From assembly GCA_965220135.1 (NCBI GenBank), contig OZ244802.1, positions 918,499 through 982,498 on the forward strand: a stretch of DNA of 64,000 bases. Reading direction: 5' to 3'. Every line of letters begins with the position of its first letter. Positions within the stretch are counted from its first letter, which is position 1. A program made the translations under genes and the position numbers. Below are positions 9,908-49,506 of this stretch, in pieces. A model generated the notes under the pieces. It had not been told where the DNA came from, made no database searches, and saw nothing but the letters and a program-made list of their open reading frames with translations. The stretch is from Chloroflexota bacterium (GTDB lineage: Bacteria; Chloroflexota; UBA11872).

Positions 9908-10176
9908 GGCCGCGCTAGGTGGGGAGCTAGCGGTGCCCTTGAGCCGCAATCCGCTATAGCGGGCTGAATCCCCGCCCGAGGTCCCTCCGCAACGTGTCTG
10001 CCGTCGACGCTCGGTATTGAACGCCGGGCCTCGTGCGACGAAGGCCTTCCAACCCCGTCAGGTCCGAGAGGAAGCAGCGGTACGAAGCCCCCTTCGGGCG
10101 CCGCGAGTCCACCTGGCCGGAGCCGCGGCCCGTCGGTAAGGCGTTGCTGGTGGGTTCGACGGCGGGTGCGCGGCCT
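9908..10176 (+). ncRNA. ffs: signal recognition particle RNA, large Bacillus-type form with Alu domain (4.5S/scRNA)
   Basis: Domain IV motif GTCAGGTCCGAGAGGAAGCAGC is present. The 5' Alu-domain segment GCTAGGTGGGGAGCTAGCGGTGCCC...GCAATCCGCTATAGCGGGCTGAATCCCC closely parallels B. subtilis scRNA. The 5' GGCCGCGC pairs with the 3' GCGCGGCC. It sits directly upstream of dnaX, a conserved synteny. Confidence 0.85.
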
Positions 10177-10187
10177 CTATCTCTATC

Positions 10188-11858
10188 ATGACGCTGCCGT
10201 CATGCCGGGAGGCTTCCGTGGCCGCGTCGCGTCCGCCATCGTTCCAAGCGCTGTATAACCGCTACCGCCCGCAGCGGTTCGACGAGCTAATTGGCCAGGA
10301 ACACGTGGTGCGGACGCTGCAGAACGCTCTGGTGCACAATCGGCTGAGCCATGCGTACCTGTTCTCCGGCGAACGAGGCACAGGCAAGACTACGGCGGCG
10401 CGGCTGCTGGCGAAGGCGGTGAATTGCCTGGAGGGTATCCAGGCGGAGACGTGCGGCAGCTGCGAGCACTGCCAGGCCGTCGCGAACGGGTCGTTCCTGG
10501 ACCTGATCGAGATGGACGCGGCCTCGCACCGGGGAATCGACGATATCCGGGAGATCCGGGAGCTGACGCAGTTTGCGCCAGGGGCGGGGCGCTATCGCGT
10601 ATACATCATCGACGAGGTTCACCAGCTTTCAGCGCCGGCCAAGGACGCGCTGCTGAAGACGCTGGAGGAGCCGCCGCCACAGACGCTTTTCGTGCTAGCG
10701 ACGACGGAGCCGCACCGGGTCCCGGCGACAATCCGGTCGCGGACGCAGCACCTGACATTCCGTCGCATCGGCGTGCTGGAGCTGACCGCTCAGCTGCGCA
10801 GCATTGCCGAGACCGAGGGCGCTGAGATCGAGGAGGCTGCACTACATACGCTGGCTCGCAACGCCGGCGGCAGCGCGCGGGACGCGGTGAGCTTGCTGGA
10901 CCAGGCGCTGGCCTATAGCGATAACGAGGCCACCGCGGATGCCGTGAACTCAATGCTTGGGCTGACGGGCCGCGACGCGGTGATCCAACTGCTCGGCCAC
11001 CTGCTGGACGGCGACGCGGCGTCAGGACTGCAGGCGATCGAACGCGCAATCGAAGACGGCACAAGCCCGAACACGCTGCGACAGCAGATTATCGACATCC
11101 TGCGGGACATCCTGATTCTGAAGACTTCACGCGAATCGACGTCCGTCGGCCACCTGACAGAGGACGAGGCGTTCGAGTTGACGCGGCGCACGGAGAATTC
11201 GAGCCTGCGCGACATCGTGCGCACGCTGGAAGTGTTCGCGGAGCCGGACCCGCCGTCACGGACAGGGGTGGACGCGACGCTGGAGTTGGAACTGGCGTTC
11301 GCGCGGGCGGTACTGGCGATTACGGAGACTTCAACGCCGGCGGTGACCGCCGCACAAGCCCAGGCAACCCGGCAGCCGGTTAGCGCGCCGGCCGCACTGC
11401 CACAGCCCGCGCCCGCCGCCAAAGCACCGGCCACGGACGTTGCCCGGCCGCCGGCACCGCAACCCGTGAGCGCGGCGGATGGCGAAATCACGGCGGCCTC
11501 GATTGCCGCCTGCAAGGACGCGTGGGTTTCGGTGATCCGCCAGGAGTCGCGCGAGATCGCGCCGTACGTTGGCGAAGCCGAGGTGATCGCCTATTCGGAC
11601 GGCACCGTGACCCTGGGCTACCGCAGTGGCTTCCTGTTCGACCGGGTACAGAGGCCCGATGCGCTTCGGCAAGTCGCACGGGCCCTGTCGCAGGTGCTGG
11701 GCCATCCGATTCAGATTCAGAACGAGCAGCGGGGCACAATGGCGCCAACGACACGCCCATCGACCGGGCCGGCTCACAATGACGATCCGGTCGTACGCGT
11801 CGCAATGCGCGAGTATGGAGCCAAACCGATCTCAGACAGTTCCGCCACGGGAGGTTGA
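10188..11858 (+). CDS. dnaX: DNA polymerase III subunit gamma/tau
   Basis: YRPQRFDELIGQEHVVRTLQNAL...LFSGERGTGKTTAARLLAKAVNC (AAA+ Walker A, clamp-loader motifs). An alternative GTG start at 10218 has a better GGGAGG RBS. Confidence 0.9.
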   Translation: MTLPSCREASVAASRPPSFQALYNRYRPQRFDELIGQEHVVRTLQNALVHNRLSHAYLFSGERGTGKTTAARLLAKAVNCLEGIQAETCGSCEHCQAVANGSFLDLIEMDAASHRGIDDIREIRELTQFAPGAGRYRVYIIDEVHQLSAPAKDALLKTLEEPPPQTLFVLATTEPHRVPATIRSRTQHLTFRRIGVLELTAQLRSIAETEGAEIEEAALHTLARNAGGSARDAVSLLDQALAYSDNEATADAVNSMLGLTGRDAVIQLLGHLLDGDAASGLQAIERAIEDGTSPNTLRQQIIDILRDILILKTSRESTSVGHLTEDEAFELTRRTENSSLRDIVRTLEVFAEPDPPSRTGVDATLELELAFARAVLAITETSTPAVTAAQAQATRQPVSAPAALPQPAPAAKAPATDVARPPAPQPVSAADGEITAASIAACKDAWVSVIRQESREIAPYVGEAEVIAYSDGTVTLGYRSGFLFDRVQRPDALRQVARALSQVLGHPIQIQNEQRGTMAPTTRPSTGPAHNDDPVVRVAMREYGAKPISDSSATGG

Positions 11859-11861
11859 CGC

Positions 11862-12158
11862 ATGTCGATGAAGATGTTCCGGCAGTTCCAGAAGCAGATG
11901 GAGAAGGTTCAGGACGAACTGAAGCAGATGACGGTGGAGGCCACGGCGGGCGGCGGCGCGGTCAGGGTGGTTGCCACCGGGGATCAGCGGGTGGTGTCGA
12001 TTGACATCGATTCAGCTGTGATCGATCCGGAGGACGCGGAGTTGCTGTCCGAAATGATCCTGGTGGCCGTGAACGATGCCATGGAGCAGTCGCAGGAACT
12101 GGCCAAGAGCAAACTGGGCGGGCTGACCGGCGGGCTGAAGATTCCGGGCCTGGGCTAG
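11862..12158 (+). CDS. ybaB: YbaB/EbfC family nucleoid-associated protein
   Basis: 98 aa. MFRQFQKQMEKVQDELKQMTVEATAGGGAVRVVATGDQRVVSIDID is the classic YbaB signature. Conserved dnaX-ybaB-recR order. Confidence 0.9.
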   Translation: MSMKMFRQFQKQMEKVQDELKQMTVEATAGGGAVRVVATGDQRVVSIDIDSAVIDPEDAELLSEMILVAVNDAMEQSQELAKSKLGGLTGGLKIPGLG

Positions 12159-12161
12159 CGC

Positions 12162-12764
12162 GTGGCGGACGCGCTGCCCCACGCGGTCACGCGGCTAATC
12201 GAGGAGTTGACGCGACTGCCGACGGTGGGGCCGAAGACGGCGCAGCGGCTGGCGTTCTTCCTGCTGCGCGGATCGTCAGGGCAGGCGCGCACGTTGGGGA
12301 CGGCGATTGAGGCGCTGCACGAGGGGATCCAGACGTGCGAGCGCTGCCGAAATTTCGCGGACAGCAACCCGTGCGCGATCTGCCAGGACCCGACGCGGAA
12401 TACGGCGTTGCTTTGCGTGGTAGAAGATCCTCTGGACTTGGTGGCGGTTGAGAATTCGGGTGGATTCAATGGGCTGTATCACGTGCTGCACGGAGCGATT
12501 TCGCCGCTGGAGGGAATCGGGCCGGACGACCTGACGATCGATCTGCTGGTGCGGCGGGCGGGGCGCGAGCGGATCGGCGAGGTGGTGATTGCGACCAACG
12601 CGACGATCGAGGGCGATGCCACGGCGATGGAGATCCGGCAGCGGCTTGGCGATCTTGGCGTGCGGGTTACTCGACTGGCGCGTGGACTCGCGACGGGCGG
12701 CGACATTGAGTACGTTGACGCCGCAACGATCGCGCAGGCACTGGAGGGTCGGCGTGAACTCTGA
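12162..12764 (+). CDS. recR: recombination protein RecR
   Basis: LPTVGPKTAQRLAFFLL (HhH), the C4 zinc finger CERCRNFADSNPCAIC, and a Toprim domain. GTG start. Confidence 0.9.
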   Translation: MADALPHAVTRLIEELTRLPTVGPKTAQRLAFFLLRGSSGQARTLGTAIEALHEGIQTCERCRNFADSNPCAICQDPTRNTALLCVVEDPLDLVAVENSGGFNGLYHVLHGAISPLEGIGPDDLTIDLLVRRAGRERIGEVVIATNATIEGDATAMEIRQRLGDLGVRVTRLARGLATGGDIEYVDAATIAQALEGRREL

Positions 12765-20631: not shown

Positions 20632-21234
20632 TTGCAACTCACCGAAGCGTCTCGGGATCTCGTGACATTGGCTAATGCACCGGCGGGCGAAGAGTCCGGC
20701 GTGCCGTTGCCGACGGTGATTTCCGCCGACGCCATTGCACGCCGCGTTCGTGAGCTTGGCGCGGAAATCTCGGAGGCTTACGCGGACCGCGAGCCCGTGT
20801 TGGTGCTGGTGCTGCACGGGGCGTTCATCTTTGCCGCCGATCTCGCGCGCGCCCTGACTACAGCGCATCAAGTGGAGTCGCTGGCGCTCGCCTCATACGA
20901 CGGTCGCGAGTCGAGCGGACAGGTGCAGGTCATCAAGGACCTGGGATGTGACATCGCCGGGCGGGACGTGCTGATCGTGGAGGACATCGTGGATACCGGC
21001 CGCACGGCGGCAGCCGCGCTGGCGTTGCTGGAGTCCCGCGACCCGCGTTCGATCGAAGTGGTGACGCTGCTGGACAAGCCTTCGCGACGAGTACTTGACG
21101 TCACGCCGCGATGGACTGGTTTTGAGATCGAGGACATATTCGTGGTTGGCTACGGGCTCGACCTGGATGGGCGCTTTCGCGGGTTGCCGTATATTGCGAA
21201 CGCCGACGCCCCGGATTTGAAAGGCGAGTCATAG
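20632..21234 (+). CDS. hpt: hypoxanthine phosphoribosyltransferase
   Basis: VLKGAFIFAADLARAL...VLIVEDIVDTGRT (PRPP-binding motif)...LLDKPSRR...FVVGYGLD. Confidence 0.85.
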   Translation: MQLTEASRDLVTLANAPAGEESGVPLPTVISADAIARRVRELGAEISEAYADREPVLVLVLHGAFIFAADLARALTTAHQVESLALASYDGRESSGQVQVIKDLGCDIAGRDVLIVEDIVDTGRTAAAALALLESRDPRSIEVVTLLDKPSRRVLDVTPRWTGFEIEDIFVVGYGLDLDGRFRGLPYIANADAPDLKGES

Positions 21235-21238
21235 CTCA

Positions 21239-22015
21239 ATGCCCCTGGTTACGGTCGACAACCGCAGCGTCTCGCTGAACGTGCGCGGTACCGGCAGCAC
21301 CGTCGTGTTGTTCATCCACGGCGTCGGTCCGGGCGGGGCCGCGTGGGACCTGGTCACCCAAGGTCTGGCCGAAACGTGCCGCGCGTATGTGCTGGACCTT
21401 CCCGGTTTCGGCAAGAGTGAACGCGGGAATGCGACAGGCTCGGTCGACGACGCGGCAACCCTGGTGCATCGCGTGCTGCACGCGCAGGGTCAGACCGAGC
21501 CCCTGGCAATCGTGGGACACGCCTATGGTGGGTTGGCGGCCCTGGCATTTGCCGCTCGCTTTCCGAGCCATGTGACCAAGCTGGCGCTCGTTTCGACCGC
21601 CGGATTCGACAACAATCCGGCGGCAACACTAGGGCGACGGGACAGAATCACCGAGGCTGGATGGGACACCGGCACGGCCGAGGACTGGCTTCGCGCAGGC
21701 CTGGTTGAGGACCTGGCCGAGGCGCACTTTGACGCCATGCGCGACGCCGCGGCCGAGGTGGACGCGGAGGTGGTTTCCGGCTGTTTCGCGAGCAGCGCTC
21801 GACGGGTGTTGCTGGAGGAAGCCTGCGCGATCGAGGCGCCCACGCTGCTCGTACGCGGCTCAGATGACCCGCTGGTAAGCGAGAACGACCTGCAGATCCT
21901 GGCCGCCCGACTGGCCGGCGCGGAGGTGGTTTCGACTCCGGGCGTCGGCCACTGGCCGAGCCTGGAAGCGCCCGACGAATTGCGGGCCGAACTGGTGCGA
22001 TTCTTCGGCCTCTGA
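21239..22015 (+). CDS. alpha/beta hydrolase fold protein (nucleophile Ser replaced by Ala)
   Basis: VVLFIHGVGPGGAAWD...LDLPGFGKS...AIVGHAYGGLAALAFAARFP. The GxSxG motif reads GHAYG. Confidence 0.75.
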   Translation: MPLVTVDNRSVSLNVRGTGSTVVLFIHGVGPGGAAWDLVTQGLAETCRAYVLDLPGFGKSERGNATGSVDDAATLVHRVLHAQGQTEPLAIVGHAYGGLAALAFAARFPSHVTKLALVSTAGFDNNPAATLGRRDRITEAGWDTGTAEDWLRAGLVEDLAEAHFDAMRDAAAEVDAEVVSGCFASSARRVLLEEACAIEAPTLLVRGSDDPLVSENDLQILAARLAGAEVVSTPGVGHWPSLEAPDELRAELVRFFGL

Positions 22016-22075: not shown

Positions 22076-22900
22076 ATGAAATTCGTTCGTTACGCGACTG
22101 AATCCGGGCCGGCCCTTGGCTCTCTGAAGGAGTCGGGCGCCGTTTACGCCGTCAGCGGCGACATGTTCGGCGACTACGAGGTGGGGGCGCAGGTCGGCAC
22201 AGTGGACGACCTGGAATTGCTGGCGCCGGTGGATCCCGGCAACGTGATCGCCGTTGGGGCCAACTACCTGGCGCACATCCTGGAAGGCCACGACGAAGAC
22301 GCCATTCCAAAGTTTCCAATGCTCTTCATGAAGCCGAAGTCGGCCATCACCGGCCCCGGAGCGCCGATCGTGCTGCCGGACCCCGCAAACTTCACCCAGT
22401 CAATGAATGATCCGGACCTGCAAAAGGACCCGTTCGGCGAGGTGCACTACGAGGCCGAGCTGGTGGCGGTGATCGGGAAGACCTGCCGAAACGTCTCGGA
22501 GGACGAAGCGCTGGACTACGTGCTGGGCTACAGCTGCGGCAACGATGTCAGCGCACGCGGCCTGCAGGTGAAGGAAATGGCGACCGGCGTGCTGCTGATG
22601 AGCAAGGGGATGGACACGTTTGCGCCGCTGGGGCCGTGCATTGCCACCGATCTTGACCCCTCCAACCTCGAGATCATGGCGCGGCTGAATGGCGAGGTGA
22701 AGCAACACAGCAGCACGGACGATCTGCTGTTCGGCGTGGCCGCCCTGATTGCCTACACGTCGCAGGGTGTGACGCTCAGGCCGGGCGACTGCATATACAC
22801 GGGCACGTGCGCCGGGCCGTCGGCGCTGTCGCCGGGCGACGTGATCGAGATCGAGGTGGAAGGCGTGGGGGTGCTGAGCAATCCGGTGGTGGCGGCCTAG
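22076..22900 (+). CDS. fumarylacetoacetate hydrolase (FAH) family protein
   Basis: PKFPMLFMKPKSAITGPGAPIVLP...EAELVAVIGK...YVLGYSCGNDVSAR is the FAH-fold signature. Confidence 0.8.
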   Translation: MKFVRYATESGPALGSLKESGAVYAVSGDMFGDYEVGAQVGTVDDLELLAPVDPGNVIAVGANYLAHILEGHDEDAIPKFPMLFMKPKSAITGPGAPIVLPDPANFTQSMNDPDLQKDPFGEVHYEAELVAVIGKTCRNVSEDEALDYVLGYSCGNDVSARGLQVKEMATGVLLMSKGMDTFAPLGPCIATDLDPSNLEIMARLNGEVKQHSSTDDLLFGVAALIAYTSQGVTLRPGDCIYTGTCAGPSALSPGDVIEIEVEGVGVLSNPVVAA

Positions 22901-22921
22901 CGGGCCACCGGTACCAGCGGC

Positions 22922-24187
22922 ATGATCCGCAGATTTGACCTTCCGTACGGCGAAGAGTCGCTGGCTGTCCGCGCAGCCGGGGTGGACCTGGCGGGTATCT
23001 ACGCGCCGCGTCCGACTCCGCCGGCGCTCGCTCCCAAGGCGCTGATCCGGGAAGCGCTGGACAACCCGATTGGGTCGGCGCCGCTGCGCGAGGCGGCTCG
23101 CGGCAAGTCTCGAGCTCTTGTGCTGATCGACGACATCACGCGGGAGACGCCGGCGGACTTGTTGCTGCCGCCGATCCTGGACGACCTGGAGACGGCGGGA
23201 ATCGCGGCGGACGACATCGTGGTGATGATCGCCCTGGGCACGCACCGGCCGATGACGGAGGCCGAGATCACGCACAAGGTCGGGGACGAGGTGCTGGCGC
23301 GGGTACGAGTGACGCAGCACGACCACCGCACGGCGCCCTTGCGCGACCTGGGAGTGACGCCGAGCGGGACGCCGATCGAGGTCAACGAGCACCTGTTCGA
23401 GGCCGACATCGTGATTGGGACCGGCGCCGTGGTGCCTCACCACATAGCCGGGTTCTCGGCGGGCGCCAAGATCGTGCAGCCGGGAGTTTCGGGCGCCGCC
23501 ACGACGGCGGCCACGCACATGTTCAGCGCCAGGGCGCGGACGCCGCTGCTGGGCCGGGTCGACACGCCGGTACGGGCCGAGATGGAGCTAATTGCCGAGC
23601 GCTGCGGCATGAAGCACGTGCTGAACGTGACGCTTAACGCCGACGGGCAGATCGTGACCGCGCGCTTTGGCGCGACGCGGCCTACGTACCGACGGGCCGT
23701 CGAGGACGCCCGGCGCATCTACGGCGTTCGCGCGCCGGCGGGACTAGACGCGGTGGTGGCCGGGTCGCACCCCTGCGACATCGAGTTCTGGCAGGCGCAC
23801 AAGAGCCTGTATCCGGCGATGCTGATGGTGCGGCCGGGCGGAACCATCATCGTGGTCACGCCGTGCCCCGAAGGGGTGGCCGTGACGCACCCGGACATGC
23901 TCGAGTACACGGCGCAGCCAGCGGATGAGTTGTTGCGACGCTATGAGGGCAACGAAATCGACGACCGGGTGGCCGCATCGCTGGCCGTGGCCTGGGCCAG
24001 GGTGCGGGAATTTGCGCGCGTGGTGCTGGTATCGGACGGGATCGCCCCGCATGAGGCGGCGGCGCTGGGGTTCGATACGGCGGCGGACGTGGAGACCGCG
24101 CTGTCGACGCTGGCACGGACGAGCGGACCGGCTCCCAGAGTTGGCGTCCTGACGCACGCACCGGACACGCTGCCGCTGGTGGCCTGA
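22922..24187 (+). CDS. LarA-family (lactate racemase-like, DUF2088) putative alpha-hydroxyacid racemase/epimerase
   Basis: RALVLIDDITRETP...IVVMIALGTHRPMTEAEI...AGFSAGAKIV parallels the LarA N-terminal domain motifs, including the His and Lys that tether the nickel-pincer cofactor. Confidence 0.7.
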   Translation: MIRRFDLPYGEESLAVRAAGVDLAGIYAPRPTPPALAPKALIREALDNPIGSAPLREAARGKSRALVLIDDITRETPADLLLPPILDDLETAGIAADDIVVMIALGTHRPMTEAEITHKVGDEVLARVRVTQHDHRTAPLRDLGVTPSGTPIEVNEHLFEADIVIGTGAVVPHHIAGFSAGAKIVQPGVSGAATTAATHMFSARARTPLLGRVDTPVRAEMELIAERCGMKHVLNVTLNADGQIVTARFGATRPTYRRAVEDARRIYGVRAPAGLDAVVAGSHPCDIEFWQAHKSLYPAMLMVRPGGTIIVVTPCPEGVAVTHPDMLEYTAQPADELLRRYEGNEIDDRVAASLAVAWARVREFARVVLVSDGIAPHEAAALGFDTAADVETALSTLARTSGPAPRVGVLTHAPDTLPLVA

Positions 24188-24190
24188 GGC

Positions 24191-25420
24191 GTGGAGCGTT
24201 GGGCCGTCATTGCCGACGACTTGACCGGAGCACTCGATACCGCGCTGCAATTCCGGAAGGCCCGTCAGCAGACCATGGTTTCGACCCGTCCCGGGGTCTG
24301 GCCGTCGCGCGGACCGGTGGTAGCCATGAGCACCGAATCCAGGCACGTTGCGGCCGCCAGCGCCGCCGAGAGCGTGAAGGACGCGTATCAGGCGCTGCAA
24401 GACCGAGCGTCGGCACGGATCTATAAGAAGACCGACTCGCTGCTGCGCGGGAATATAGGAGCCGAGCTACGGGCGCTCTGCGACACCGCCGGTTCGGGTC
24501 CGCTGGTATTTGCGCCCGCCTATCCGACCGGCGGCCGCACGACGATCGATGGAATACACCGGCTGGACGGCCAACCCGTTGCGGAGGCCGCGCCGGGACG
24601 CGATCCACTGACTCCGGTTGTGGAGTCGCATATCCCAACCCTGCTGCGGGACAGCGGCGGCCTTCGGGCCCGGGACGTGCCGCTCGACGTTGTGCGCGGA
24701 GGTCAGGAGGCGCTGGTAGGGGCGCTGACCAGGGCACGCCGAAATGGCGTTGAGGTCGTGGCGCCCGATGTCGAGACCGACGATGACTTGCAAGCGATAG
24801 CGTCGGCGCTTGGCGCGTGGGCCGGCGGGCGCATAAGCGCGGGGTCGGCCGGGCTGGCGGAGAACCTGGCGCGGCCCGATCGAGGCTCAGCCAAGCCTGA
24901 GGGTCTGGGACGATCGGCGTTCGTGGCGGCCGTGGTGGGCACGCCGAGCGCGCATACCCGGGAGCAGGTCGAGCGCGCGCTAGTCACGGGGTTTGCACGG
25001 CGTGTCCAGATTCGAAGCCATACGGACATCGAAGCCGCGGTTCGAGAGATTCGCCTCAACCAGTCGAATGACCGGATGACGATATTCGACACGACGCTTG
25101 AAGGAACGGCGCCGCGGCCGGAGGAACGCCGGCAGCAGTTACGGTGCGTCGGCGATCTTTGCCGAGCCATCGTTGACGCGGTCGATCAGCCGGGACTGAT
25201 TCTCACCGGCGGGGATACCGCACGCGCCGCGCTGGATGCGCTGGAGGTTGATGCGATCGAGGTTCTGGGGGAGATCGAGTGGGGCGTGCCCGGCGGGCAT
25301 GCCCTGCGCGGCACTCGCCGGGTGGCGTCTGTGGTGACCAAGGGTGGGAATATGGGAGGTCCCGAGGCGCTGACGACCGCCTTTCGAAGCCTCTCCTCCA
25401 AGGTGAGCCAAGCCGCATGA
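24191..25420 (+). CDS. four-carbon acid sugar kinase family protein (DUF1537; OtnK/DtnK-like)
   Basis: N-terminal WAVIADDLTGALDTAL is the DUF1537 kinase signature. C-terminal GGDTARAAL...VVTKGGNMGGPEAL. Confidence 0.8.
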   Translation: MERWAVIADDLTGALDTALQFRKARQQTMVSTRPGVWPSRGPVVAMSTESRHVAAASAAESVKDAYQALQDRASARIYKKTDSLLRGNIGAELRALCDTAGSGPLVFAPAYPTGGRTTIDGIHRLDGQPVAEAAPGRDPLTPVVESHIPTLLRDSGGLRARDVPLDVVRGGQEALVGALTRARRNGVEVVAPDVETDDDLQAIASALGAWAGGRISAGSAGLAENLARPDRGSAKPEGLGRSAFVAAVVGTPSAHTREQVERALVTGFARRVQIRSHTDIEAAVREIRLNQSNDRMTIFDTTLEGTAPRPEERRQQLRCVGDLCRAIVDAVDQPGLILTGGDTARAALDALEVDAIEVLGEIEWGVPGGHALRGTRRVASVVTKGGNMGGPEALTTAFRSLSSKVSQAA

Positions 25421-26445
25421 CCTCACGTTCTGCCATCCAGCGTCCGCTGATCGCCGTCACCATGGGGGATCCGGCGGGTGTCGGTCCCGAGATCACGGCG
25501 AAAGCCCTGGCGAACCCGAAGATTCGAGCCATATGCCGCGCCGTGGTGGTGGGTGACTTGGGGACGATGGATAGGGCCGCCGGTGCGGTGGGCGTCAACG
25601 TCGCCGCCGCGGATCCGGACGCGTTGGACCGGGAGATTGATGAAATTCAGGTCCATGACCCCTGGAGACGCGATCTGCGTGAGGCGCCAGTAGGGACGGT
25701 TGACGCCAGGTCAGGCGCGGCGGCGGCGGAGGCGGTCATCGAGGCGACGAAACTGGCACTCAAGGGGCGTGTGGCGGCCATCGTCACGGCACCGATCAAC
25801 AAGGCCGCCATCAACGCCGCCGGGTTTCACTACGCGGGGCACACCGAGTTGCTGGCCGACCTGACGGACTCGCCCGGCGCGCGCATGTTGCTGGTGGCGC
25901 CGGGCCTGCGGGTGATCCACAACAGCACACACGTATCGCTTCGCGAGGCCATTGACCGGGTGACGCGGGAAAACGTGCGCCACGTGATTGGCCTGCTGGA
26001 CGAGACGCTGCGGATGATGGCCATCGAGCGTCCGCGCCTGGCCGTCTGCGGTCTGAATCCGCACGCGGGCGAGGGCGGTCTATTCGGCCACGAGGATGAC
26101 GCGTTCATTCGGCCAGCCATTGACGACGCGCGCAACGACGGCCTGGACGTGACGGGGCCCGAGCCGGGCGACACCGTGTTCAACAGGGCGCGTAACGGGG
26201 CGTTCGATGGGGTAGTGGCGATGTATCACGACCAGGGACACGTGGCGGTGAAGGTGGCCGGGTTCTTTGACGGCATCAACGTGTCGGTCGGTTTGCCCAT
26301 CATCCGGACGAGTGTGGACCATGGCACGGCATTCGATATTGCCGGGCAGGGCATCGCGCGGGCGGATAGTATGGAGATGGCCATTGAGACTGCCGCCACC
26401 ATGGCCGTTAGTACCCTACGCGCGGCGGCCCCGGAGACTGCCTGA
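25417..26445 (+). CDS. PdxA family (PdxA2-type) 4-phospho-hydroxyacid dehydrogenase, decarboxylating
   Basis: RPLIAVTMGDPAGVGPEI...GHTELLA...GLNPHAGEGGLFG...IVAMYHDQGH is the PdxA signature. The ATG overlaps the kinase stop (ATGA). Confidence 0.85.
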   Translation: MTSRSAIQRPLIAVTMGDPAGVGPEITAKALANPKIRAICRAVVVGDLGTMDRAAGAVGVNVAAADPDALDREIDEIQVHDPWRRDLREAPVGTVDARSGAAAAEAVIEATKLALKGRVAAIVTAPINKAAINAAGFHYAGHTELLADLTDSPGARMLLVAPGLRVIHNSTHVSLREAIDRVTRENVRHVIGLLDETLRMMAIERPRLAVCGLNPHAGEGGLFGHEDDAFIRPAIDDARNDGLDVTGPEPGDTVFNRARNGAFDGVVAMYHDQGHVAVKVAGFFDGINVSVGLPIIRTSVDHGTAFDIAGQGIARADSMEMAIETAATMAVSTLRAAAPETA

Positions 26446-26449
26446 TCTG

Positions 26450-26671
26450 ATGAATGCGCCGTTGCAGCTTGCCCAGTTGGTGCTTTCCGTGATCGTGATT
26501 GCCGCGGTTCTGATCCAGTTGCGGAACACGGGGATGGGCTCGGCTTTGGGCGGCAGCGACAGTTCGTTCTTTCATGCCCGGCGAGGGGTCGACCGGCTGA
26601 CGTTCAACTTCACAATCGGTGCTTCGGCCCTTTTCTTCCTCGTTTCAATCCTGGCCGCCGTCCTCCAGTAG
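26450..26671 (+). CDS. secG: preprotein translocase subunit SecG
   Basis: 73 aa: MNAPLQLAQLVLSVIVIAAVLIQLRNTGMGSALGGSDSSFFHARRG...LTFNFTIGASALFFLVSIL. Confidence 0.8.
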   Translation: MNAPLQLAQLVLSVIVIAAVLIQLRNTGMGSALGGSDSSFFHARRGVDRLTFNFTIGASALFFLVSILAAVLQ

Positions 26672-28644: not shown

Positions 28645-28721
28645 CGGGGCGTGGCGCAGGCTGGTAGCGCACCTGACTGGGGGTCAGGAGGTCGCCGGTT
28701 CAAATCCGGCCGCCCCGACCA
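28645..28721 (+). tRNA. tRNA-Pro (anticodon GGG)
   Basis: Cloverleaf: acceptor CGGGGCG/CGCCCCG, D-arm GCGC-AGGCTGGTA-GCGC, anticodon arm CCTGA-CTGGGGG-TCAGG (GGG at 34-36), variable AGGTC, T-arm GCCGG-TTCAAAT-CCGGC, discriminator A and an encoded CCA. Confidence 0.85.
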
Positions 28722-34822: not shown

Positions 34823-35761
34823 TTAGACAGTACGGGCGCCTTCGTCATATACGTGCGCCGGCGGACGTCGCAAGTCCCAGATCAACCCGGTCCAACTCAA
34901 CATCGTGAGCAGGTAGTGGGTCACGTCGATCTCCCACCAGAAGAATCCATTGCGCTCAGAGCCCGGGTACCGGTGATGGTTGTTATGCCAGCCCTCGCCC
35001 AGCGTGATCAGCGCCAGCAGGAGGTTGTTTCGACTCGTGTCCTTCGTGGGGAATCGCCGGCTGCCCCACATATGCGCGCCGGAGTTTATGAGGTACGTGG
35101 TGTGCAGCAGCATGACGGTGCTCGCCAGGAAGCACCATACGAATACCTGCAGCCAGGTCACGCCCGTAGAAGGGAATGCGCGCTCGAGCCAGAAACCCAA
35201 GGAAATCGTGCCGCCGGCGTAAAGCAGGGTGCTGCCGAAGTACCAGCGGTCGAGCCAGCGAAGTTCGGGGAAGCGGACCAGGTCCTTGACTTCTTCCCAG
35301 CGCGTGTCGTCGCGGTTGTAGGCGAGCAACCAGCCCATGTGCGCCCACCAGAATCCGCCCTTGAGCGGGGAGTGCACATCCTCCTCCTCGTCGGAGTGCC
35401 GGTGATGAAAGCGATGATGTCCGGCCCACCACAAGGGCCCCTTTTGAATCCCAAACGTGCCCAGCAGCGCCATGACAGCCTGGAAAACCCGCGTGGTCTG
35501 GAAGGTGCGGTGGGAGAAATAGCGGTGATAGAAGCCGGTAATGAAGAAGACGCGCATCCAATAGAACGCCAGGCAGGCCACGACGGCCGGCCAGCTCACG
35601 CCCACGATGAACGCCGCGAGTACTCCCAGATGCAGGGCAATGAACCCCCAGTTGTGCCGAATGGCCTGCCAGGCGGTATAGCGCTGTTCGACCCGAGTCG
35701 GCAGCTTGATCTTCTCCAGCTTCAGACCCTCCGGCGAAGCCTCAAGGCTTGTTTCGCTCAC
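34823..35761 (-). CDS. acyl-CoA desaturase (stearoyl-CoA 9-desaturase family)
   Basis: His boxes HRYFSHR, HHRFHHRHSD and HNNHH, with 4 TM helices. Confidence 0.85.
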   Translation of the reverse strand: MSETSLEASPEGLKLEKIKLPTRVEQRYTAWQAIRHNWGFIALHLGVLAAFIVGVSWPAVVACLAFYWMRVFFITGFYHRYFSHRTFQTTRVFQAVMALLGTFGIQKGPLWWAGHHRFHHRHSDEEEDVHSPLKGGFWWAHMGWLLAYNRDDTRWEEVKDLVRFPELRWLDRWYFGSTLLYAGGTISLGFWLERAFPSTGVTWLQVFVWCFLASTVMLLHTTYLINSGAHMWGSRRFPTKDTSRNNLLLALITLGEGWHNNHHRYPGSERNGFFWWEIDVTHYLLTMLSWTGLIWDLRRPPAHVYDEGARTV

Positions 35762-45150: not shown

Positions 45151-46368
45151 ATGAGCCGTTCGCAGCAGCGTCAGCCTACCGTGCCCCCTCGACTCTCCGT
45201 TTGGGCCTACCCCTGGGACCTCGCCGACGAAGGCGTCGACTCGGCCCTGGACTGGCTGGCGGCGCACGGGTTCGACGCGATCGAACTCTGCCCCAATTAC
45301 CACGCAATCTCGACCTTCTCGCCTCGGAATCGCCGTCGCTCGCAGTTCTATTCGGAGCAGGGCGCCGTGTACTTTCCCGCCCGGGCTGAGCGATACAGCC
45401 GGATCAAGCCCGCGCTCTTTGACGAACCTGAGGTCTTGGCGGTCTACGAGCAGACTTCCCGAGGCGCCGAGTGCCGAGGGATGCAGCTCAACGCCTGGGT
45501 CATTGGGATGTTCCAGCCGTGGCTTGCGCGTGCCTATCCGGATACGGCCGTCGAAAACGCGTTCGGGCACCGCAGCTTTTCGGCGACGTGCCCGGCCCAT
45601 CCGGACATCCAGACCTACCTGCCCGAAATGCTGGCCGACTTTTGCGACCAGTATTCGATTAGCGGCCTGACGCTGGAAAACGTGGGTCATCCGGACTTCA
45701 CCTACGGGTGGGTACGCCCGCGCATCCTGGTGCACATGGACGCGTGGACGCAGTTTCTGGCGGGACTGTGCTTCAACGAGCACTCCATGTCGGCGGCTCG
45801 CGCCCACGGCGTCGATCCCGAGGACGTTCGCTCGTCCGTGGCCGGTGAACTTCGCGAACGCCTCGAAGCCGTACCGGATCCGGATGCGGCTGACGAAGAC
45901 CTGCCTGCGCAAGTCGCGGAACGCTGCGAGGCCGACGAGGAGTTTCGCGGCTACCTGGAAGCGCGCGAGCAGGCGGCAATCGGACTGGTGAAAGCCATTC
46001 GTTACGAGTTACGGCGCAGCGGCGTGCGGGTGGGCGTCAGCGAGGCATCGCTCGGCTGGGCCAACCACGGACTGCGCCTCGCCGACCTGCTGGACACGAT
46101 CGGCGCGCTCATGATTTCGGATCCCATGAATAACGCCGAAGTCGCCGACGCGCAGGTGCGAACGGTGCGTGATAGCGGCGCCGACATCGAGATCACGGTC
46201 AATCAGACAGCTCATCATGAAGTCGATCCGCACGGCCCGGGCTTCACGGCACGGGCACGCCGACTACGCGAGATCGAGCCGGATCGCGTGATGGTGTACA
46301 ACTTCGGCCTCTTGGCCCCGGCCACGCTCGCGCACGCCGGCTCGGTTCTACGCGAACACCTGGGATAG
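45151..46368 (+). CDS. hypothetical protein (possible TIM-barrel glycoside-hydrolase-like)
   Basis: 405-aa ORF with coding-like codon usage. No motif recognised with confidence. Confidence 0.5.
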   Translation: MSRSQQRQPTVPPRLSVWAYPWDLADEGVDSALDWLAAHGFDAIELCPNYHAISTFSPRNRRRSQFYSEQGAVYFPARAERYSRIKPALFDEPEVLAVYEQTSRGAECRGMQLNAWVIGMFQPWLARAYPDTAVENAFGHRSFSATCPAHPDIQTYLPEMLADFCDQYSISGLTLENVGHPDFTYGWVRPRILVHMDAWTQFLAGLCFNEHSMSAARAHGVDPEDVRSSVAGELRERLEAVPDPDAADEDLPAQVAERCEADEEFRGYLEAREQAAIGLVKAIRYELRRSGVRVGVSEASLGWANHGLRLADLLDTIGALMISDPMNNAEVADAQVRTVRDSGADIEITVNQTAHHEVDPHGPGFTARARRLREIEPDRVMVYNFGLLAPATLAHAGSVLREHLG

Positions 46369-47553: not shown

Positions 47554-48696
47554 CTAGATGAACGCGAGCATGCCGTCCGCCTTGGTGGGACGGCCTCGGC
47601 GCCAGGGCCGGTAGGGGTATTTCTCAAGGATCCCATCGCTCAGTTCCACGCCCAGTCCGGGTCGGTCCGGGATGGACACGTACCCATCCGCCAGCTGGAT
47701 CGGCTCGTCTAGCACCTCGGCCCGAACTCCCGAGTCGTCGGCGTGGTACTCGAGGATCAGGAAGTTGGGCGCCGTCGCCGCAAAGTGGACGTTCACGGCC
47801 GTGGCCAGCGGTCCGAGCGGATTGTGCGGCGCGACGCTTACGTAATGCGCTTCGGCCATGGCCGCGATTTTATTCATTTCGGTCAGGCCGCCGGTCACGC
47901 AGACGTCTGGCTGAATGATGTCGGCGGCGCCGGTGGCGAGCAGCCGCTGGAACTCGAATTTCGTGTAGAGACACTCTCCGGTGGCGATGGGAATCGGCGA
48001 TTTGCGAGCCAGCTTGGCCAGCGGTTCAAACTGCTCGGGCCTCACCGGCTCTTCAAAGAAAAAGGGCCGATACGGGCTGATGCGCTCAGCCATTTCCAGG
48101 GCACGCGCAGGTTCGAGGATCTTTGCGTGCGGGTCGACGCCGATATCAATGGCGTCACCCACCGCCGCGCGCACAGCGGCCATTCGCCGCTCGGCTGTAT
48201 CCAGCTGAACGCCCCAGGGATCAGCATCGCCGTTTGGTGCGGAGGGACCGATCTTCAGCGCCGTATAGCCGTAAGTCTCGATGAGCCGTTTGCCGTGTTC
48301 GCCCATGGCCTCGGGTGTAGCACCGTGCGCCGACTGGTACACACGCACTCGGTCACGCACTTTGCCACCCAGCAACTGGTACACCGGGGTTTCAAGGGCC
48401 TTGCCCTTGATGTCCCAGAGCGCCTGGTCAATCCCGCTGATCGCCGCCGTGATGATCGAACCGGTCGGAAAACGGCTGCCGGCATACAGCTCGTGCCAGA
48501 TTCGTTCGCCGTCGAATGGGTCAAATCCAAGCACCCAGTCTTCAAAGTAACGGACGGTCTCGGCGACCGCCTTGTCAGGGCCGACCGGATAAGCCTCACC
48601 GATTCCCGTGATGCCGGCATCCGTCATCACGCGCACGATCGGCCAGTTTCGTGAGCCGTCGTTAATGAAGTCGCAGGCCAGACCTGTGATTTTCAA
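47554..48696 (-). CDS. mandelate racemase/muconate lactonizing enzyme family protein (enolase superfamily, probable acid-sugar dehydratase)
   Basis: MKITGL...IVRVMTDAGITGIGEA...ALWDIKGKALETPVYQLLGG...IQPDVCVTGGLTE are enolase-superfamily capping and barrel motifs. Confidence 0.8.
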   Translation of the reverse strand: MKITGLACDFINDGSRNWPIVRVMTDAGITGIGEAYPVGPDKAVAETVRYFEDWVLGFDPFDGERIWHELYAGSRFPTGSIITAAISGIDQALWDIKGKALETPVYQLLGGKVRDRVRVYQSAHGATPEAMGEHGKRLIETYGYTALKIGPSAPNGDADPWGVQLDTAERRMAAVRAAVGDAIDIGVDPHAKILEPARALEMAERISPYRPFFFEEPVRPEQFEPLAKLARKSPIPIATGECLYTKFEFQRLLATGAADIIQPDVCVTGGLTEMNKIAAMAEAHYVSVAPHNPLGPLATAVNVHFAATAPNFLILEYHADDSGVRAEVLDEPIQLADGYVSIPDRPGLGVELSDGILEKYPYRPWRRGRPTKADGMLAFI

Positions 48697-48756: not shown

Positions 48757-49506
48757 CTAGAGCACAACGAACAAGAGCACGAAGTACGCGCCGACGAGAA
48801 GTACCGGCGGCATCAGTCCAAGCACGAAGACGCTGAGCAATCCTCGACGAGCGGGCGGCACAAGTGTGTGTAGGGCGGCGAAGCTGGTCAGGTGAGCAAG
48901 TACAAGCAGACCAGTGCTGACCGCAATGGAACCCGGATTGCTCACCCACCATGCAGGCAGGCGCGTGGCTAGGGACTGGCGGCGTAGCAGCTGATAGACC
49001 AGATCCTGTCCCTCAGGCGCCGGATCACCTTGCATGTAGAGCTGTCCCTCAGGATTCGTGTCACCGCCGACCGCCGCAAGAAAAACCGGCCAGCGAGTTC
49101 CGCGCGGAATGTCGAATTCGACGAAATATGTCTTTTCGGCCGACAGCGTCTCTGAGAATCGGAATAGCACCATCTCAAACCTGCGATGGGTCGACACGAC
49201 TGTAGTGCTCGCGGATTCGGCGACGGTCGAACCGCGCGGGCCTTCAAGTCGTAGGCGGGTGCCCAATACCGCAGCACTGTCCAGAGGGCCTCCAACGCGC
49301 ACCGGCGCCGCCAGCGTGTCAAACGGCTCCGCAGCCGTGAACACCTGGCCTGGCTGCACGTCGGCTGAGACGGGTCCCAGGGGAAAGACTGCGGTTTCCT
49401 TCTGATAGGTGGTCGAAGGCCAATCGACCGGGACGAGCATCACTGCGCACCAAATCCCCGCAACCACAATGGCCACGAGGGTGTTGCCGATGTGGCGTCT
49501 AGCCAT
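48757..49506 (-). CDS. hypothetical membrane protein
   Basis: N- and C-terminal TM helices. Overlaps the upstream gene by 8 nt (operon). Confidence 0.5.
   Translation of the reverse strand: MARRHIGNTLVAIVVAGIWCAVMLVPVDWPSTTYQKETAVFPLGPVSADVQPGQVFTAAEPFDTLAAPVRVGGPLDSAAVLGTRLRLEGPRGSTVAESASTTVVSTHRRFEMVLFRFSETLSAEKTYFVEFDIPRGTRWPVFLAAVGGDTNPEGQLYMQGDPAPEGQDLVYQLLRRQSLATRLPAWWVSNPGSIAVSTGLLVLAHLTSFAALHTLVPPARRGLLSVFVLGLMPPVLLVGAYFVLLFVVL

What the first reader, a model, noticed from the sequence alone, without database searches (positions are those of the whole stretch)
22076..26445. LarA-family racemase/epimerase homolog clustered with a DUF1537 four-carbon acid-sugar kinase and PdxA2 dehydrogenase
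DUF1537 kinases paired with PdxA2-type oxidative decarboxylases form the established threonate/erythronate to DHAP catabolic route. Here the pair is tightly linked (ATGA overlap) and is preceded by a LarA homolog. The LarA family is a nickel-pincer-cofactor enzyme family, recently shown to include diverse alpha-hydroxyacid racemases and C2-epimerases. An FAH-family gene lies just upstream. This suggests an undescribed variant pathway in which a LarA-type enzyme epimerises or racemises a tetronate or other hydroxy-acid to feed the kinase. LarB, LarC and LarE, needed to make the cofactor, are not in this window.
Basis: partly seen in the sequence, partly recalled or inferred. Interest (0 to 1): 0.6.

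Follow-up and report, generated by a model that had tools for sequence, protein, structure and literature searches.

The report
Nickel epimerase joined to sugar-acid pathway
Three adjacent genes (a nickel-cofactor LarA-type epimerase, a DUF1537 sugar-acid kinase and a PdxA2-type dehydrogenase) form a module that recurs in at least five bacterial phyla in several gene orders, which points to an undescribed, still untested variant of the route that converts small sugar acids into the glycolytic intermediate DHAP.

Summary
On the + strand lie FAH (22076-22900), a LarA homolog (22922-24187), a DUF1537 kinase (24191-25420) and a PdxA2-like dehydrogenase (25417-26445, ATGA overlap), in a sponge-associated Chloroflexota genome.

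The LarA homolog keeps every cofactor and catalytic residue: the Lys tether, the Ni-binding His and both catalytic His. These are invariant in 86 of 86 relatives. dN/dS is about 0.1, and the predicted fold matches LarA (TM 0.88). Its substrate-pocket signature fits none of the characterised lactate, malate, 2-hydroxyglutarate or gluconate enzymes.

The linkage is not local synteny. Among 48 relatives at about 50% identity from at least 5 phyla, 29 carry the kinase and/or PdxA on the same strand, in orders PAK, KPA, AKP, AK and PA. Bacillota versions add a TRAP transporter and a sigma-54 regulator, which indicates catabolism.

The best reading is a nickel-pincer C2-epimerase of a small acid sugar, most simply D-erythronate/D-threonate. 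It would feed a DtnK-like kinase and PdxA2 to give DHAP and CO2.

Three things remain open or unsupported:
- The FAH gene is only a lineage-specific neighbour.
- larBCE are absent from the window and from all 85 related loci; their presence elsewhere in the genome could not be tested.
- No held paper describes the association.

This is a good enzymology lead, with no biochemical test yet.

The parts
22922..24187 (+). LarA-family homolog (421 aa), a member of a distinct uncharacterised subfamily; predicted nickel-pincer-nucleotide-dependent C2-epimerase of a small acid sugar
   Evidence: Pfam Lar_N plus LarA_C. Best NCBIfam hit is the LarAH6 malate racemase model, 298 bits against a cutoff of 500, so it is not a member. 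PDB LarA homologs match at 3e-56 over the full length. AlphaFold pLDDT 87; TM 0.88 to 9EID and 5HUQ. D71, R74, H108, H173, K183, H199, Q291 and K294 are invariant in 86/86 relatives. dN/dS about 0.1.
24191..25420 (+). DUF1537-family acid-sugar kinase (409 aa, GTG start), of a divergent DtnK-like type
   Evidence: Pfam SBD_N plus NBD_C. Best NCBIfam hit is D-threonate kinase, 196 bits against a cutoff of 450; 3-oxo-tetronate kinase scores 120 against 350. PDB DUF1537 structures 4XFR, 4XFM and 3DQQ match. It starts 3 nt after the LarA stop. It is adjacent to the LarA homolog in most related loci.
25417..26445 (+). PdxA2-type NAD-dependent oxidative decarboxylase (342 aa)
   Evidence: Pfam PdxA 2e-103. 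PDB 2HI1 (PdxA2) scores 294 bits and 6E85 (D-threonate 4-phosphate dehydrogenase) 284 bits, against 188 bits for E. coli PdxA. The conserved motifs GHTE, NPHAGE, YHDQGH and DHGTAFDIA are all aligned. ATGA overlap with the kinase.
22076..22900 (+). FAH-family protein (274 aa). It is an immediate upstream neighbour and possibly in the same transcript, but is probably not a member of the conserved module.
   Evidence: Pfam FAA_hydrolase plus Rv2993c-like_N; it falls below every NCBIfam cutoff. It lies 21 nt from the LarA start. In the UBA6622 clade three genes (DUF5069, an HpcH/HpaI aldolase and an EcKL kinase) sit between FAH and LarA. It is absent from nearly all distant loci.
26450..26671 (+). 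secG (73 aa), a housekeeping gene directly downstream. It marks the module as embedded in a conserved housekeeping block (hpt, hydrolase, FAH, module, secG) and is not part of the module.
   Evidence: Its translation is nearly identical to the L001 gene annotated PF03840 SecG.

Best explanation
The LarA homolog, the DUF1537 kinase and the PdxA2-type dehydrogenase form one catabolic module for a small acid sugar that has hydroxyls at C2 and C3 and a terminal CH2OH.

Proposed steps:
1. The LarA homolog uses the tethered nickel-pincer nucleotide cofactor to invert C2 of the free acid. It does so by the family's proton-coupled hydride-transfer mechanism, through a transient 2-oxo intermediate.
2. 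This converts the available epimer into the one the kinase accepts.
3. The DtnK-like kinase phosphorylates the terminal hydroxyl.
4. PdxA2 oxidises C3 and decarboxylates.

For a tetronate the sequence would be D-erythronate <-> D-threonate, then 4-phospho-D-threonate, then DHAP plus CO2. The epimerase would let one kinase/dehydrogenase pair use both C2 epimers.

Shown here: gene identities, intact LarA active-site residues, purifying selection, and gene linkage across phyla.

Inferred: the reaction, the order of steps, the substrate and the stereochemistry.
For: (1) Linkage survives rearrangement. 35 of 37 loci of the window's lineage have A-K-P (A = LarA homolog, K = kinase, P = PdxA). Of 48 loci at 47-53% LarA identity, 13 are P-A-K, 7 K-P-A, 2 A-K-P, 6 A-K and 1 P-A. 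These come from Chloroflexota classes, Bacillota (including Neomoorella carbonis), Acidobacteriota, Hydrogenedentota and Syntrophaceae. All genes are on one strand, mostly with gaps under 100 bp.

(2) In a neighbour-joining tree the subfamily is a clade apart from Mar2, LarA(Ip) and L. plantarum LarA. Linked members occur in almost all sub-clades, so the linkage is ancestral.

(3) All cofactor and catalytic residues are invariant in 86/86 sequences. Pocket positions are polar or small: F175->His, V297->His, T353->Asp, Y294->Trp, W358->Ser/Ala/Gly. This suits a polyhydroxy acid and differs from the LAR, MAR, HGR and GntE signatures listed in PMC11770544.

(4) The partner kinases of five distant loci all score best against the D-threonate kinase model rather than the oxo-tetronate kinase model. 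The dehydrogenase is PdxA2-like. DUF1537 plus PdxA2 is the published acid-sugar catabolic pair (PMC9997740 and PMC7954711, both citing Zhang 2016).

(5) Bacillota loci add a DctPQM TRAP transporter and a sigma-54 PrpR-like activator (sequences printed, families read by eye). Acidobacteriota loci put a GntP-type permease next to the LarA homolog without a kinase. Together these suggest an imported free carboxylate.

(6) In one locus a second, different LarA paralog sits directly upstream of DUF1537-PdxA.

(7) LarA-family enzymes already epimerise 2,3-dihydroxybutyrates, that is 4-deoxy-threonate and 4-deoxy-erythronate (PMC11770544).
Against: - No enzyme was assayed, and all three proteins fall below the NCBIfam equivalog cutoffs.
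- 19 of 48 distant loci show the LarA homolog alone.
- A sister Chloroflexota clade keeps LarA plus kinase but has no PdxA in the locus.
- In the window there is no transporter or regulator next to the module, and its neighbours are housekeeping genes.
- Some loci carry IlvD/Edd-type or enolase-superfamily dehydratases, which hints at longer sugar acids.
- larB, larC and larE are not within 10 kb in any of the 85 loci. Their presence in this genome is unverified.
- Known DtnK/PdxA2 and DenK/PdxA2 pathways work without an epimerase, so the need for one is an inference.
Confidence: 0.55

Rival explanations
1. The module has the same architecture but acts on a longer acid sugar (a pentonate or hexonate). 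C2-epimerisation, terminal phosphorylation and C3-oxidative decarboxylation would then give a tetrulose 4-phosphate or pentulose 5-phosphate rather than DHAP.
For: IlvD/Edd-family dehydratases occur in L042, L047, L078 and L083. Enolase-superfamily proteins occur in L042, L080 and L083. GntP-type permeases lie next to the LarA homolog. DUF1537-type kinases and their decarboxylases were recently shown to accept C5/C6 3-oxo acids (PMC12994016). Known LarA-family sugar-acid epimerases act on gluconate and mannonate (PMC7583248). The pocket has a small residue at the W358 position, as GntE does.
Against: The kinases score best against the D-threonate kinase model and the dehydrogenase against PdxA2/D-threonate-4-P dehydrogenase. 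The GntE signature E-V-A-H is not present. The dehydratases are found in only a few loci.
Confidence: 0.15
2. The LarA homolog acts after the kinase. It would interconvert 4-phospho-D-erythronate and 4-phospho-D-threonate, or other phosphorylated 2-hydroxy acids, for PdxA2.
For: The LarA homolog is most tightly coupled to the kinase: they are adjacent in 28 of the 29 linked distant loci, and A-K pairs persist where PdxA is missing. Extra His and Asp residues in the pocket could bind a phosphate.
Against: There is no conserved extra Arg or Lys among the pocket positions examined. Permease-LarA pairs without a kinase occur in Acidobacteriota, and the same pocket signature is found in unlinked members, which both favour the free acid. 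All characterised LarA enzymes use unphosphorylated acids (PMC11770544; PMC13524815).
Confidence: 0.1
3. The cluster serves vitamin B6 metabolism. The DUF1537 kinase would phosphorylate 4-hydroxy-L-threonine (or make 4-phosphoerythronate) and PdxA/PdxA2 would feed PdxJ. The LarA homolog would supply or correct the precursor.
For: PdxA2 can catalyse the PdxA reaction, and DUF1537 kinases can phosphorylate 4-hydroxythreonine (PMC9997740 and PMC7954711, both citing Thiaville 2016). The protein passes the generic TIGR00557 pdxA cutoff. In the window lineage the module sits among housekeeping genes, with no transporter or regulator nearby.
Against: 4-Hydroxythreonine is an amino acid, not a 2-hydroxy acid, so a LarA enzyme has no obvious role. 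Bacillota versions carry a TRAP importer and a sigma-54 activator, which is typical of catabolism. The protein is closer to PdxA2 than to PdxA. No pdxJ, pdxB or serC lies in the window.
Confidence: 0.07
4. The LarA homolog is a malate, lactate or glycerate racemase that is functionally independent of the kinase/PdxA2 pair.
For: Its best NCBIfam models are the malate racemases LarAH6 and LarAH5, followed by lactate racemase. In one locus (L084) a glycerate-kinase-like gene lies next to the subfamily member (family read by eye). 19 of 48 distant loci lack the pair.
Against: Its scores are far below the cutoffs: 298 against 500, 268 against 462, and 238 against 460. The malate racemase signature (H/Q then K at positions W358/T359) and the lactate racemase signature (F, F, W, E/Q) are both absent; the subfamily has H, I, S/A/G, L. 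Linkage to K/P in five arrangements across phyla is not expected for an unrelated enzyme.
Confidence: 0.05
5. The adjacency is inherited synteny with no shared function, or the LarA homolog is a cofactor-less relic.
For: Within the window's lineage the whole block from hpt to secG is syntenic. No larBCE gene lies near any locus.
Against: The linkage persists in unrelated phyla with different flanking genes and different gene orders. dN/dS is about 0.1, and the cofactor-binding residues are invariant in 86/86 sequences.
Confidence: 0.03

Closest known systems
D-threonate and D-erythronate catabolism by DtnK/DenK (DUF1537) plus PdxA2 (Zhang et al. 2016 PNAS, cited in PMC9997740, PMC7954711 and PMC12994016)
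   Same: An adjacent, translationally coupled DUF1537 kinase and a PdxA2-type dehydrogenase. The kinase scores best against the DtnK model. The dehydrogenase scores best against solved PdxA2 and D-threonate-4-P dehydrogenase.
   Different: A LarA-family gene is an integral, conserved third member. Both proteins fall well below the equivalog cutoffs (196 against 450; 319 against 583). No published version of the pathway found in the held library includes an epimerase.
NPN-dependent gluconate 2-epimerases GntE1/GntE2 (LarAH19/20; Desguin 2020, PMC7583248)
   Same: A LarA-family enzyme in a sugar-acid catabolic cluster, inverting C2 of an aldonate to feed a downstream kinase or dehydratase. It has a small residue at the W358 position.
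   Different: It belongs to a different clade and has a different pocket signature (H, I, S/A/G, L rather than E, V, A, H). Its partners are DUF1537 and PdxA2 rather than sugar kinases and uronate enzymes. The best NCBIfam matches are racemase models, not the hexonate epimerase model, which scores 71 bits.
Malate racemase Mar2 (LarAH6, PDB 6D6Z) and the broad-spectrum racemase LarA(Ip) (PDB 9EID)
   Same: These are the closest characterised sequences and structures: about 30-32% identity, E-values of 1e-50 to 1e-56, and TM 0.88 to 9EID. The cofactor and catalytic residues are identical.
   Different: The second-carboxylate-binding Lys/His of the malate racemases and the hydrophobic pocket of LarA(Ip) are replaced by His174, His293, Asp348 and a small residue at position 353. 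It forms a separate clade.
Four-step and three-step L-threonate/D-erythronate routes through oxo-tetronates (LtnD/OtnI/OtnK/OtnC; PMC12994016)
   Same: The end point is a DUF1537-family kinase followed by decarboxylation to DHAP. In both cases different tetronate stereoisomers are funnelled into one pathway.
   Different: Those routes erase C2 stereochemistry by NAD-dependent oxidation to 2-oxo-tetronate. Here a redox-neutral nickel-pincer epimerase is predicted to invert C2 instead. No LtnD, OtnI or OtnC homolog lies in the window.

Membership tests
LarA superfamily (NPN-dependent 2-hydroxyacid racemases/epimerases) | Lar_N plus LarA_C domain architecture and the LarA fold | tested here: met
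   Pfam PF09861 at 9e-56 plus PF21113. AlphaFold pLDDT 87. Foldseek TM 0.88 to 9EID and 5HUQ, E = 5e-38.
LarA superfamily (NPN-dependent 2-hydroxyacid racemases/epimerases) | Cofactor-tethering Lys184, Ni-ligand His200, and NPN-binding Arg75/Asp72 (L. plantarum numbering) | tested here: met
   K183, H199, R74 and D71 are invariant in 86/86 subfamily sequences.
LarA superfamily (NPN-dependent 2-hydroxyacid racemases/epimerases) | Two catalytic histidines (His108, His174) and the carboxylate-binding Gln295/Lys298 | tested here: met
   H108, H173, Q291 and K294 are invariant in 86/86 sequences.
LarA superfamily (NPN-dependent 2-hydroxyacid racemases/epimerases) | The cofactor biosynthesis genes larB, larC and larE are present in the same genome | not testable with these tools
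   They are absent from the 64-kb window and from +-10 kb of all 85 related loci; the positive control worked.
LarA superfamily (NPN-dependent 2-hydroxyacid racemases/epimerases) | Racemase or epimerase activity on a 2-hydroxy acid | not testable with these tools
   This needs an enzyme assay.
Malate racemases (LarAH5/LarAH6) | H/Q and K at the positions of W358/T359, and an NCBIfam equivalog score above the cutoff | tested here: not met
   The subfamily has S/A/G and L at these positions. It scores 298 bits against a cutoff of 500 and 268 against 462.
Lactate racemases (LarA sensu stricto) | F, F, W, E/Q at positions 175/176/358/359, and NF033504 above the cutoff | tested here: not met
   The residues are H, I, S, L. 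The score is 238 bits against a cutoff of 460.
Gluconate 2-epimerases (GntE) | E, V, A, H at positions 175/176/358/359 | tested here: not met
   The residues are H, I, S/A/G, L.
DUF1537 four-carbon acid-sugar kinases | An SBD_N plus NBD_C two-domain architecture | tested here: met
   PF07005 at 7e-51 plus PF17042 at 3e-19. PDB DUF1537 structures match at up to 5e-30.
D-threonate kinase DtnK / 3-oxo-tetronate kinase OtnK (equivalogs) | A score above the curated NCBIfam cutoff | tested here: not met
   DtnK scores 196 bits against 450 and OtnK 120 against 350. Partner kinases in five other loci score 189-260 bits, also below the cutoff.
PdxA2 (4-phospho-D-threonate/erythronate dehydrogenase, decarboxylating) | A PdxA-family protein that is closer to PdxA2 than to housekeeping PdxA, and is encoded next to a DUF1537 kinase | tested here: met
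   2HI1 scores 294 bits and 6E85 284 bits, against 188 bits for 1PS6. There is an ATGA overlap with the kinase.
PdxA2 (4-phospho-D-threonate/erythronate dehydrogenase, decarboxylating) | The NCBIfam equivalog NF002891 above its cutoff | tested here: not met
   It scores 319 bits against a cutoff of 583. Only the generic TIGR00557 model is passed, 361 against 290.

The most novel reading that the evidence does not exclude
This LarA subfamily would be a new class of nickel-pincer enzyme: a tetronate (or small aldonate) 2-epimerase. Together with a DtnK-like DUF1537 kinase and PdxA2 it would form a previously undescribed three-gene route to DHAP. The route is widespread in Chloroflexota (including sponge symbionts), Acidobacteriota, Bacillota and other phyla. 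It would use a redox-neutral nickel-dependent inversion in place of the NAD-dependent 2-oxo-tetronate detour of the known pathways.
Probability: 0.45. Interest if true: 0.65.

Novelty: new variant of a known kind. Interest (0 to 1): 0.55.

Why it matters
About half of the LarA superfamily still has no assigned substrate (PMC11770544), and known LarA chemistry is limited to a handful of 2-hydroxy acids. A conserved genomic partnership with the DUF1537/PdxA2 pair gives a concrete, testable substrate hypothesis for a large, mostly uncultured subfamily. The scan matched more than 500 loci.

If confirmed, it would add:
- a new entry point to tetronate and acid-sugar catabolism;
- a new physiological use for the nickel-pincer cofactor in aerobic or symbiotic Chloroflexota;

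Tried and rejected
- **larBCE in the genome.** I obtained LarB, LarC and LarE seeds from an L. plantarum plasmid (L086) and a Rhodovastum plasmid (L088). tblastn found nothing in the window or in 85 loci, although the seeds detect each other across phyla. A protein-database search with distant seeds would only list relatives of the seed, so it was not run.
- **Papers not held.** The DUF1537 paper (Zhang 2016) and the TRAP solute-binding-protein screen (Vetting 2015) are not held. What I say about them comes from citing papers or from memory.
- **TRAP binding protein.** The DctP of the Neomoorella locus best matches PDB 4PDH, then 4OVT, 4P9K and 4PDD (146-140 bits). From memory, 4PDH, 4PDD and 4P9K are D-erythronate complexes. 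I could not verify this and the scores are nearly tied, so it is only a lead.
- **ORF clustering.** My greedy longest-ORF clustering of neighbours missed genes in these GC-rich loci because antisense ORFs won. Counts therefore rest on tblastn.
- **secG.** A first Pfam scan was out of frame. This was corrected by translation and comparison with L001.
- **Promoters and terminators.** The scan shows nothing above the shuffled expectation, so it neither proves nor refutes an operon.
- **Rfam.** No riboswitch was found near the cluster.
- **FAH as a pathway member.** Rejected, as explained above.
- **CinA in the Moorella loci.** Considered as a link to the cofactor precursor and rejected as a housekeeping neighbour.


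Full report
**What is there**

The window is GC-rich (62-68%). Its closest relatives are sponge- and marine-derived Chloroflexota MAGs, with LarA protein identity up to 94%. A run of closely spaced genes lies on the + strand:

| Gene | Coordinates |
|---|---|
| hpt | 20632-21234 |
| alpha/beta hydrolase | 21239-22015 |
| FAH-family protein | 22076-22900 |
| LarA homolog | 22922-24187 |
| DUF1537 kinase | 24191-25420 |
| PdxA-family dehydrogenase | 25417-26445 |
| secG | 26450-26671 |

The gaps from FAH onward are 21, 3, -4 (ATGA overlap) and 4 nt. No terminator-like site lies between the genes on the + strand, but the scan is uninformative overall.

**The LarA homolog**

It matches solved LarA-family structures over its full length: 9EID at 3e-56, Mar2 6D6Z at 2e-50 and L. 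plantarum LarA at 2e-36. An AlphaFold model (pLDDT 87) superposes on 9EID and 5HUQ with TM 0.88.

Every residue that defines the family is present:
- the Lys that tethers the nickel-pincer cofactor (K183);
- the Ni-binding His (H199);
- Arg and Asp that bind the cofactor (R74, D71);
- the two catalytic His (H108, H173);
- the carboxylate-binding Gln and Lys (Q291, K294).

All are invariant in 86 of 86 subfamily sequences. dN/dS against four relatives is about 0.1, lower than for the kinase at 0.15-0.24. This is a working gene with a cofactor site under selection.

It is not a member of any characterised specificity group. It falls far below all NCBIfam equivalog cutoffs; the best is the LarAH6 malate racemase model at 298 bits against 500. 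PMC11770544 uses four positions (F175, F176, W358, T359 of L. plantarum LarA) to assign function. At these the subfamily has His, Ile, Ser/Ala/Gly and Leu, unlike lactate racemases (F, F, W, E/Q), malate racemases (-, -, H/Q, K), 2-hydroxyglutarate racemases (Y, F, H/Q, T) or gluconate epimerases (E, V, A, H). Other pocket positions are also distinctive and invariant: Y294->Trp and V297->His in 86/86, and T353->Asp in 83/86. A roomier pocket with more polar residues suits a polyhydroxy acid. This last point is an inference.

**The partners**

The kinase has the two DUF1537 domains. Its best curated model is D-threonate kinase (196 bits against a cutoff of 450), ahead of 3-oxo-tetronate kinase (120 bits). 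The dehydrogenase is nearer to solved PdxA2 and D-threonate-4-phosphate dehydrogenase than to E. coli PdxA (294 and 284 bits against 188), and it aligns with PdxA2 through the conserved PdxA motifs (GHTE, NPHAGE, YHDQGH). Papers in the library describe PdxA2 as a catabolic paralog that works with DUF1537 kinases on acid sugars. They also note that the pair can act on 4-hydroxythreonine.

**Is the linkage meaningful?**

This was the key test. A scan of one genome per species returned 80 loci with 10-kb flanks, and five more came from exact-protein look-ups.

In the window's own lineage (37 loci, 64-94% identity) the order LarA-kinase-PdxA-secG is always kept, except where a contig ends. That alone could be synteny.

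The 48 loci at 47-53% identity are more telling. They come from several classes of Chloroflexota, from Bacillota (including the cultured Neomoorella carbonis), Acidobacteriota, Hydrogenedentota and Syntrophaceae. Their flanking genes are unrelated, yet 29 of them carry the kinase and/or PdxA on the same strand:

| Order (A = LarA homolog, K = kinase, P = PdxA) | Loci |
|---|---|
| P-A-K | 13 |
| K-P-A | 7 |
| A-K-P | 2 |
| A-K | 6 |
| P-A | 1 |
| A alone | 19 |

In a neighbour-joining tree the subfamily is separate from Mar2, LarA(Ip) and LarA, and linked members are spread through nearly all its branches. Both partner families are rare in genomes, so chance co-location of this kind is negligible (inference). 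One Acidobacteriaceae locus even places a second, different LarA paralog directly upstream of kinase-PdxA.

**Other neighbours**

In four Bacillota loci the trio sits with a DctPQM TRAP transporter and a sigma-54 PrpR-type activator. In Acidobacteriota a GntP-type permease precedes the LarA homolog. A few loci add IlvD/Edd or enolase-superfamily dehydratases or an SDR. I read these families by eye from the sequences printed, together with the maps. This points to catabolism of an imported carboxylate, and it leaves the chain length of that carboxylate open.

The FAH gene is not part of the conserved set. In the UBA6622 clade three genes are inserted between FAH and LarA, and FAH is almost absent from the distant loci. 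Desguin 2020 did note COG0179 near two other LarA groups, so a loose association cannot be excluded.

**Mechanism proposed**

The LarA homolog inverts C2 of a free acid sugar, by established family chemistry (proton-coupled hydride transfer to the nickel-pincer cofactor). The kinase phosphorylates the terminal hydroxyl. PdxA2 oxidises C3 and decarboxylates.

PdxA-type enzymes act on the D (3R) configuration. C2 is the only centre a LarA enzyme can invert, and it is also the centre lost on decarboxylation. The simplest scheme is therefore D-erythronate <-> D-threonate, then 4-phospho-D-threonate, then DHAP plus CO2. This stereochemical reasoning is my own and is not a tool result.

LarA-family enzymes are already known to epimerise the 4-deoxy analogues of threonate and erythronate. 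I give 0.55 to the general scheme and roughly 0.3 to this particular substrate pair.

**Caveats**

- Nothing was assayed.
- 19 of 48 distant loci have the LarA homolog alone.
- A sister Chloroflexota clade (L041, L046, L058, L066, L077) keeps LarA-kinase-secG without PdxA in the locus.
- larBCE are never within 10 kb in 85 loci, although the seeds cross-detect between Lactobacillus and an alphaproteobacterium. In Desguin's survey several other LarA groups show 28-64% linkage to these genes.
- Genome-wide presence in this organism could not be tested. The invariant cofactor residues argue indirectly that the cofactor is available.

**Novelty**

None of the following returned a description of this module:
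- full-text searches for LarA/DUF2088 together with DUF1537, PdxA/PdxA2, threonate/erythronate or tetronate;
- the COG context table of Desguin 2020;
- the 2024 JBC and mBio papers.

A 2026 paper still states that LarA-family reactions are limited to racemisation and epimerisation of hydroxy acids. The original DUF1537 paper is not held, so I cannot exclude a passing mention there.

I rate this a new variant of a known kind. It consists of known enzyme families and known chemistry in a new, conserved combination, with a new predicted substrate class for the nickel-pincer enzymes.

Noticed in passing
85 related loci (L001-L085) and the window: No larB, larC or larE lies within 10 kb of any member of this LarA subfamily (0/85), although the seeds detect each other across phyla. 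Desguin 2020 reports 28-64% linkage for several other LarA groups. The subfamily seems systematically unlinked from its cofactor genes.
   Followed up: partly
L041, L046, L058, L066, L077 (about 10001-12500 in each): A sister Chloroflexota clade keeps the hydrolase-LarA-DUF1537-secG synteny but has no PdxA gene in the locus. The LarA-kinase pair is therefore the tightest unit, and the dehydrogenase step may be encoded elsewhere or replaced.
   Followed up: partly
L084:10001-16660: An Acidobacteriaceae locus reads: subfamily LarA homolog, a 471-aa protein that looks like a MOFRL-type glycerate kinase (by eye), a second LarA paralog (best model lactate racemase, 345 bits against a cutoff of 460), DUF1537, PdxA. 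That puts two different LarA enzymes in one cluster.
   Followed up: partly
L068:10001-16080: In a Firmicutes MAG, PanB (ketopantoate hydroxymethyltransferase) and a PanE/ApbA reductase lie between the LarA homolog and the TRAP transporter genes. Pantoate is itself a 2,4-dihydroxy acid. This is a single case, so it may be coincidence.
   Followed up: no
L088:249-9034 (Rhodovastum atsumiense plasmid NZ_OW485604.1): A tidy annotated operon: sigma-54 regulator, 2-keto-3-deoxygluconate permease, larA, larC, larE-like, larB, glycerate kinase. This is another LarA-plus-kinase catabolic design, probably for glycerate.
   Followed up: no
window:42451-43134 (+): A MIP/aquaglyceroporin gene with 32% identity to LarD, the lactic-acid channel of the L. 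plantarum lar operon. It lies 16 kb from the LarA homolog and is probably unrelated.
   Followed up: partly
window:39977-42249 (+) and 47554-48696 (-): A UxuA-type mannonate dehydratase lies next to an enolase-superfamily (MR_MLE) protein, and there is a second MR_MLE gene. These are further sugar-acid catabolic genes in the same window.
   Followed up: no
window:28797-29987, 53613-54404, 54433-55233 (-); 34823-35761, 61445-62590, 62643-63791 (-): Three PhyH-family dioxygenases and three fatty-acid desaturase genes. With a sulfatase (1212-2684) and several GFO/IDH/MocA oxidoreductases, this gene content is typical of marine or sponge Chloroflexota.
   Followed up: no
window:9910-10173 (+) and 28645-28721 (+): Signal recognition particle RNA (Rfam 148 bits) and a tRNA-Pro (GGG).
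   Followed up: yes
window:7503-9122 (+), 45151-46368 (+), 49499-51499 (-), 51584-52453 (+): Long ORFs with coding-type GC3 but no Pfam match at 1e-6.
   Followed up: no
L048:7743-8771: The DctP binding protein of the Neomoorella carbonis cluster best matches PDB 4PDH, with 4P9K and 4PDD also among the top five. From memory these are D-erythronate complexes, but I could not verify that and the scores are nearly tied with other sugar-acid binders.
   Followed up: partly
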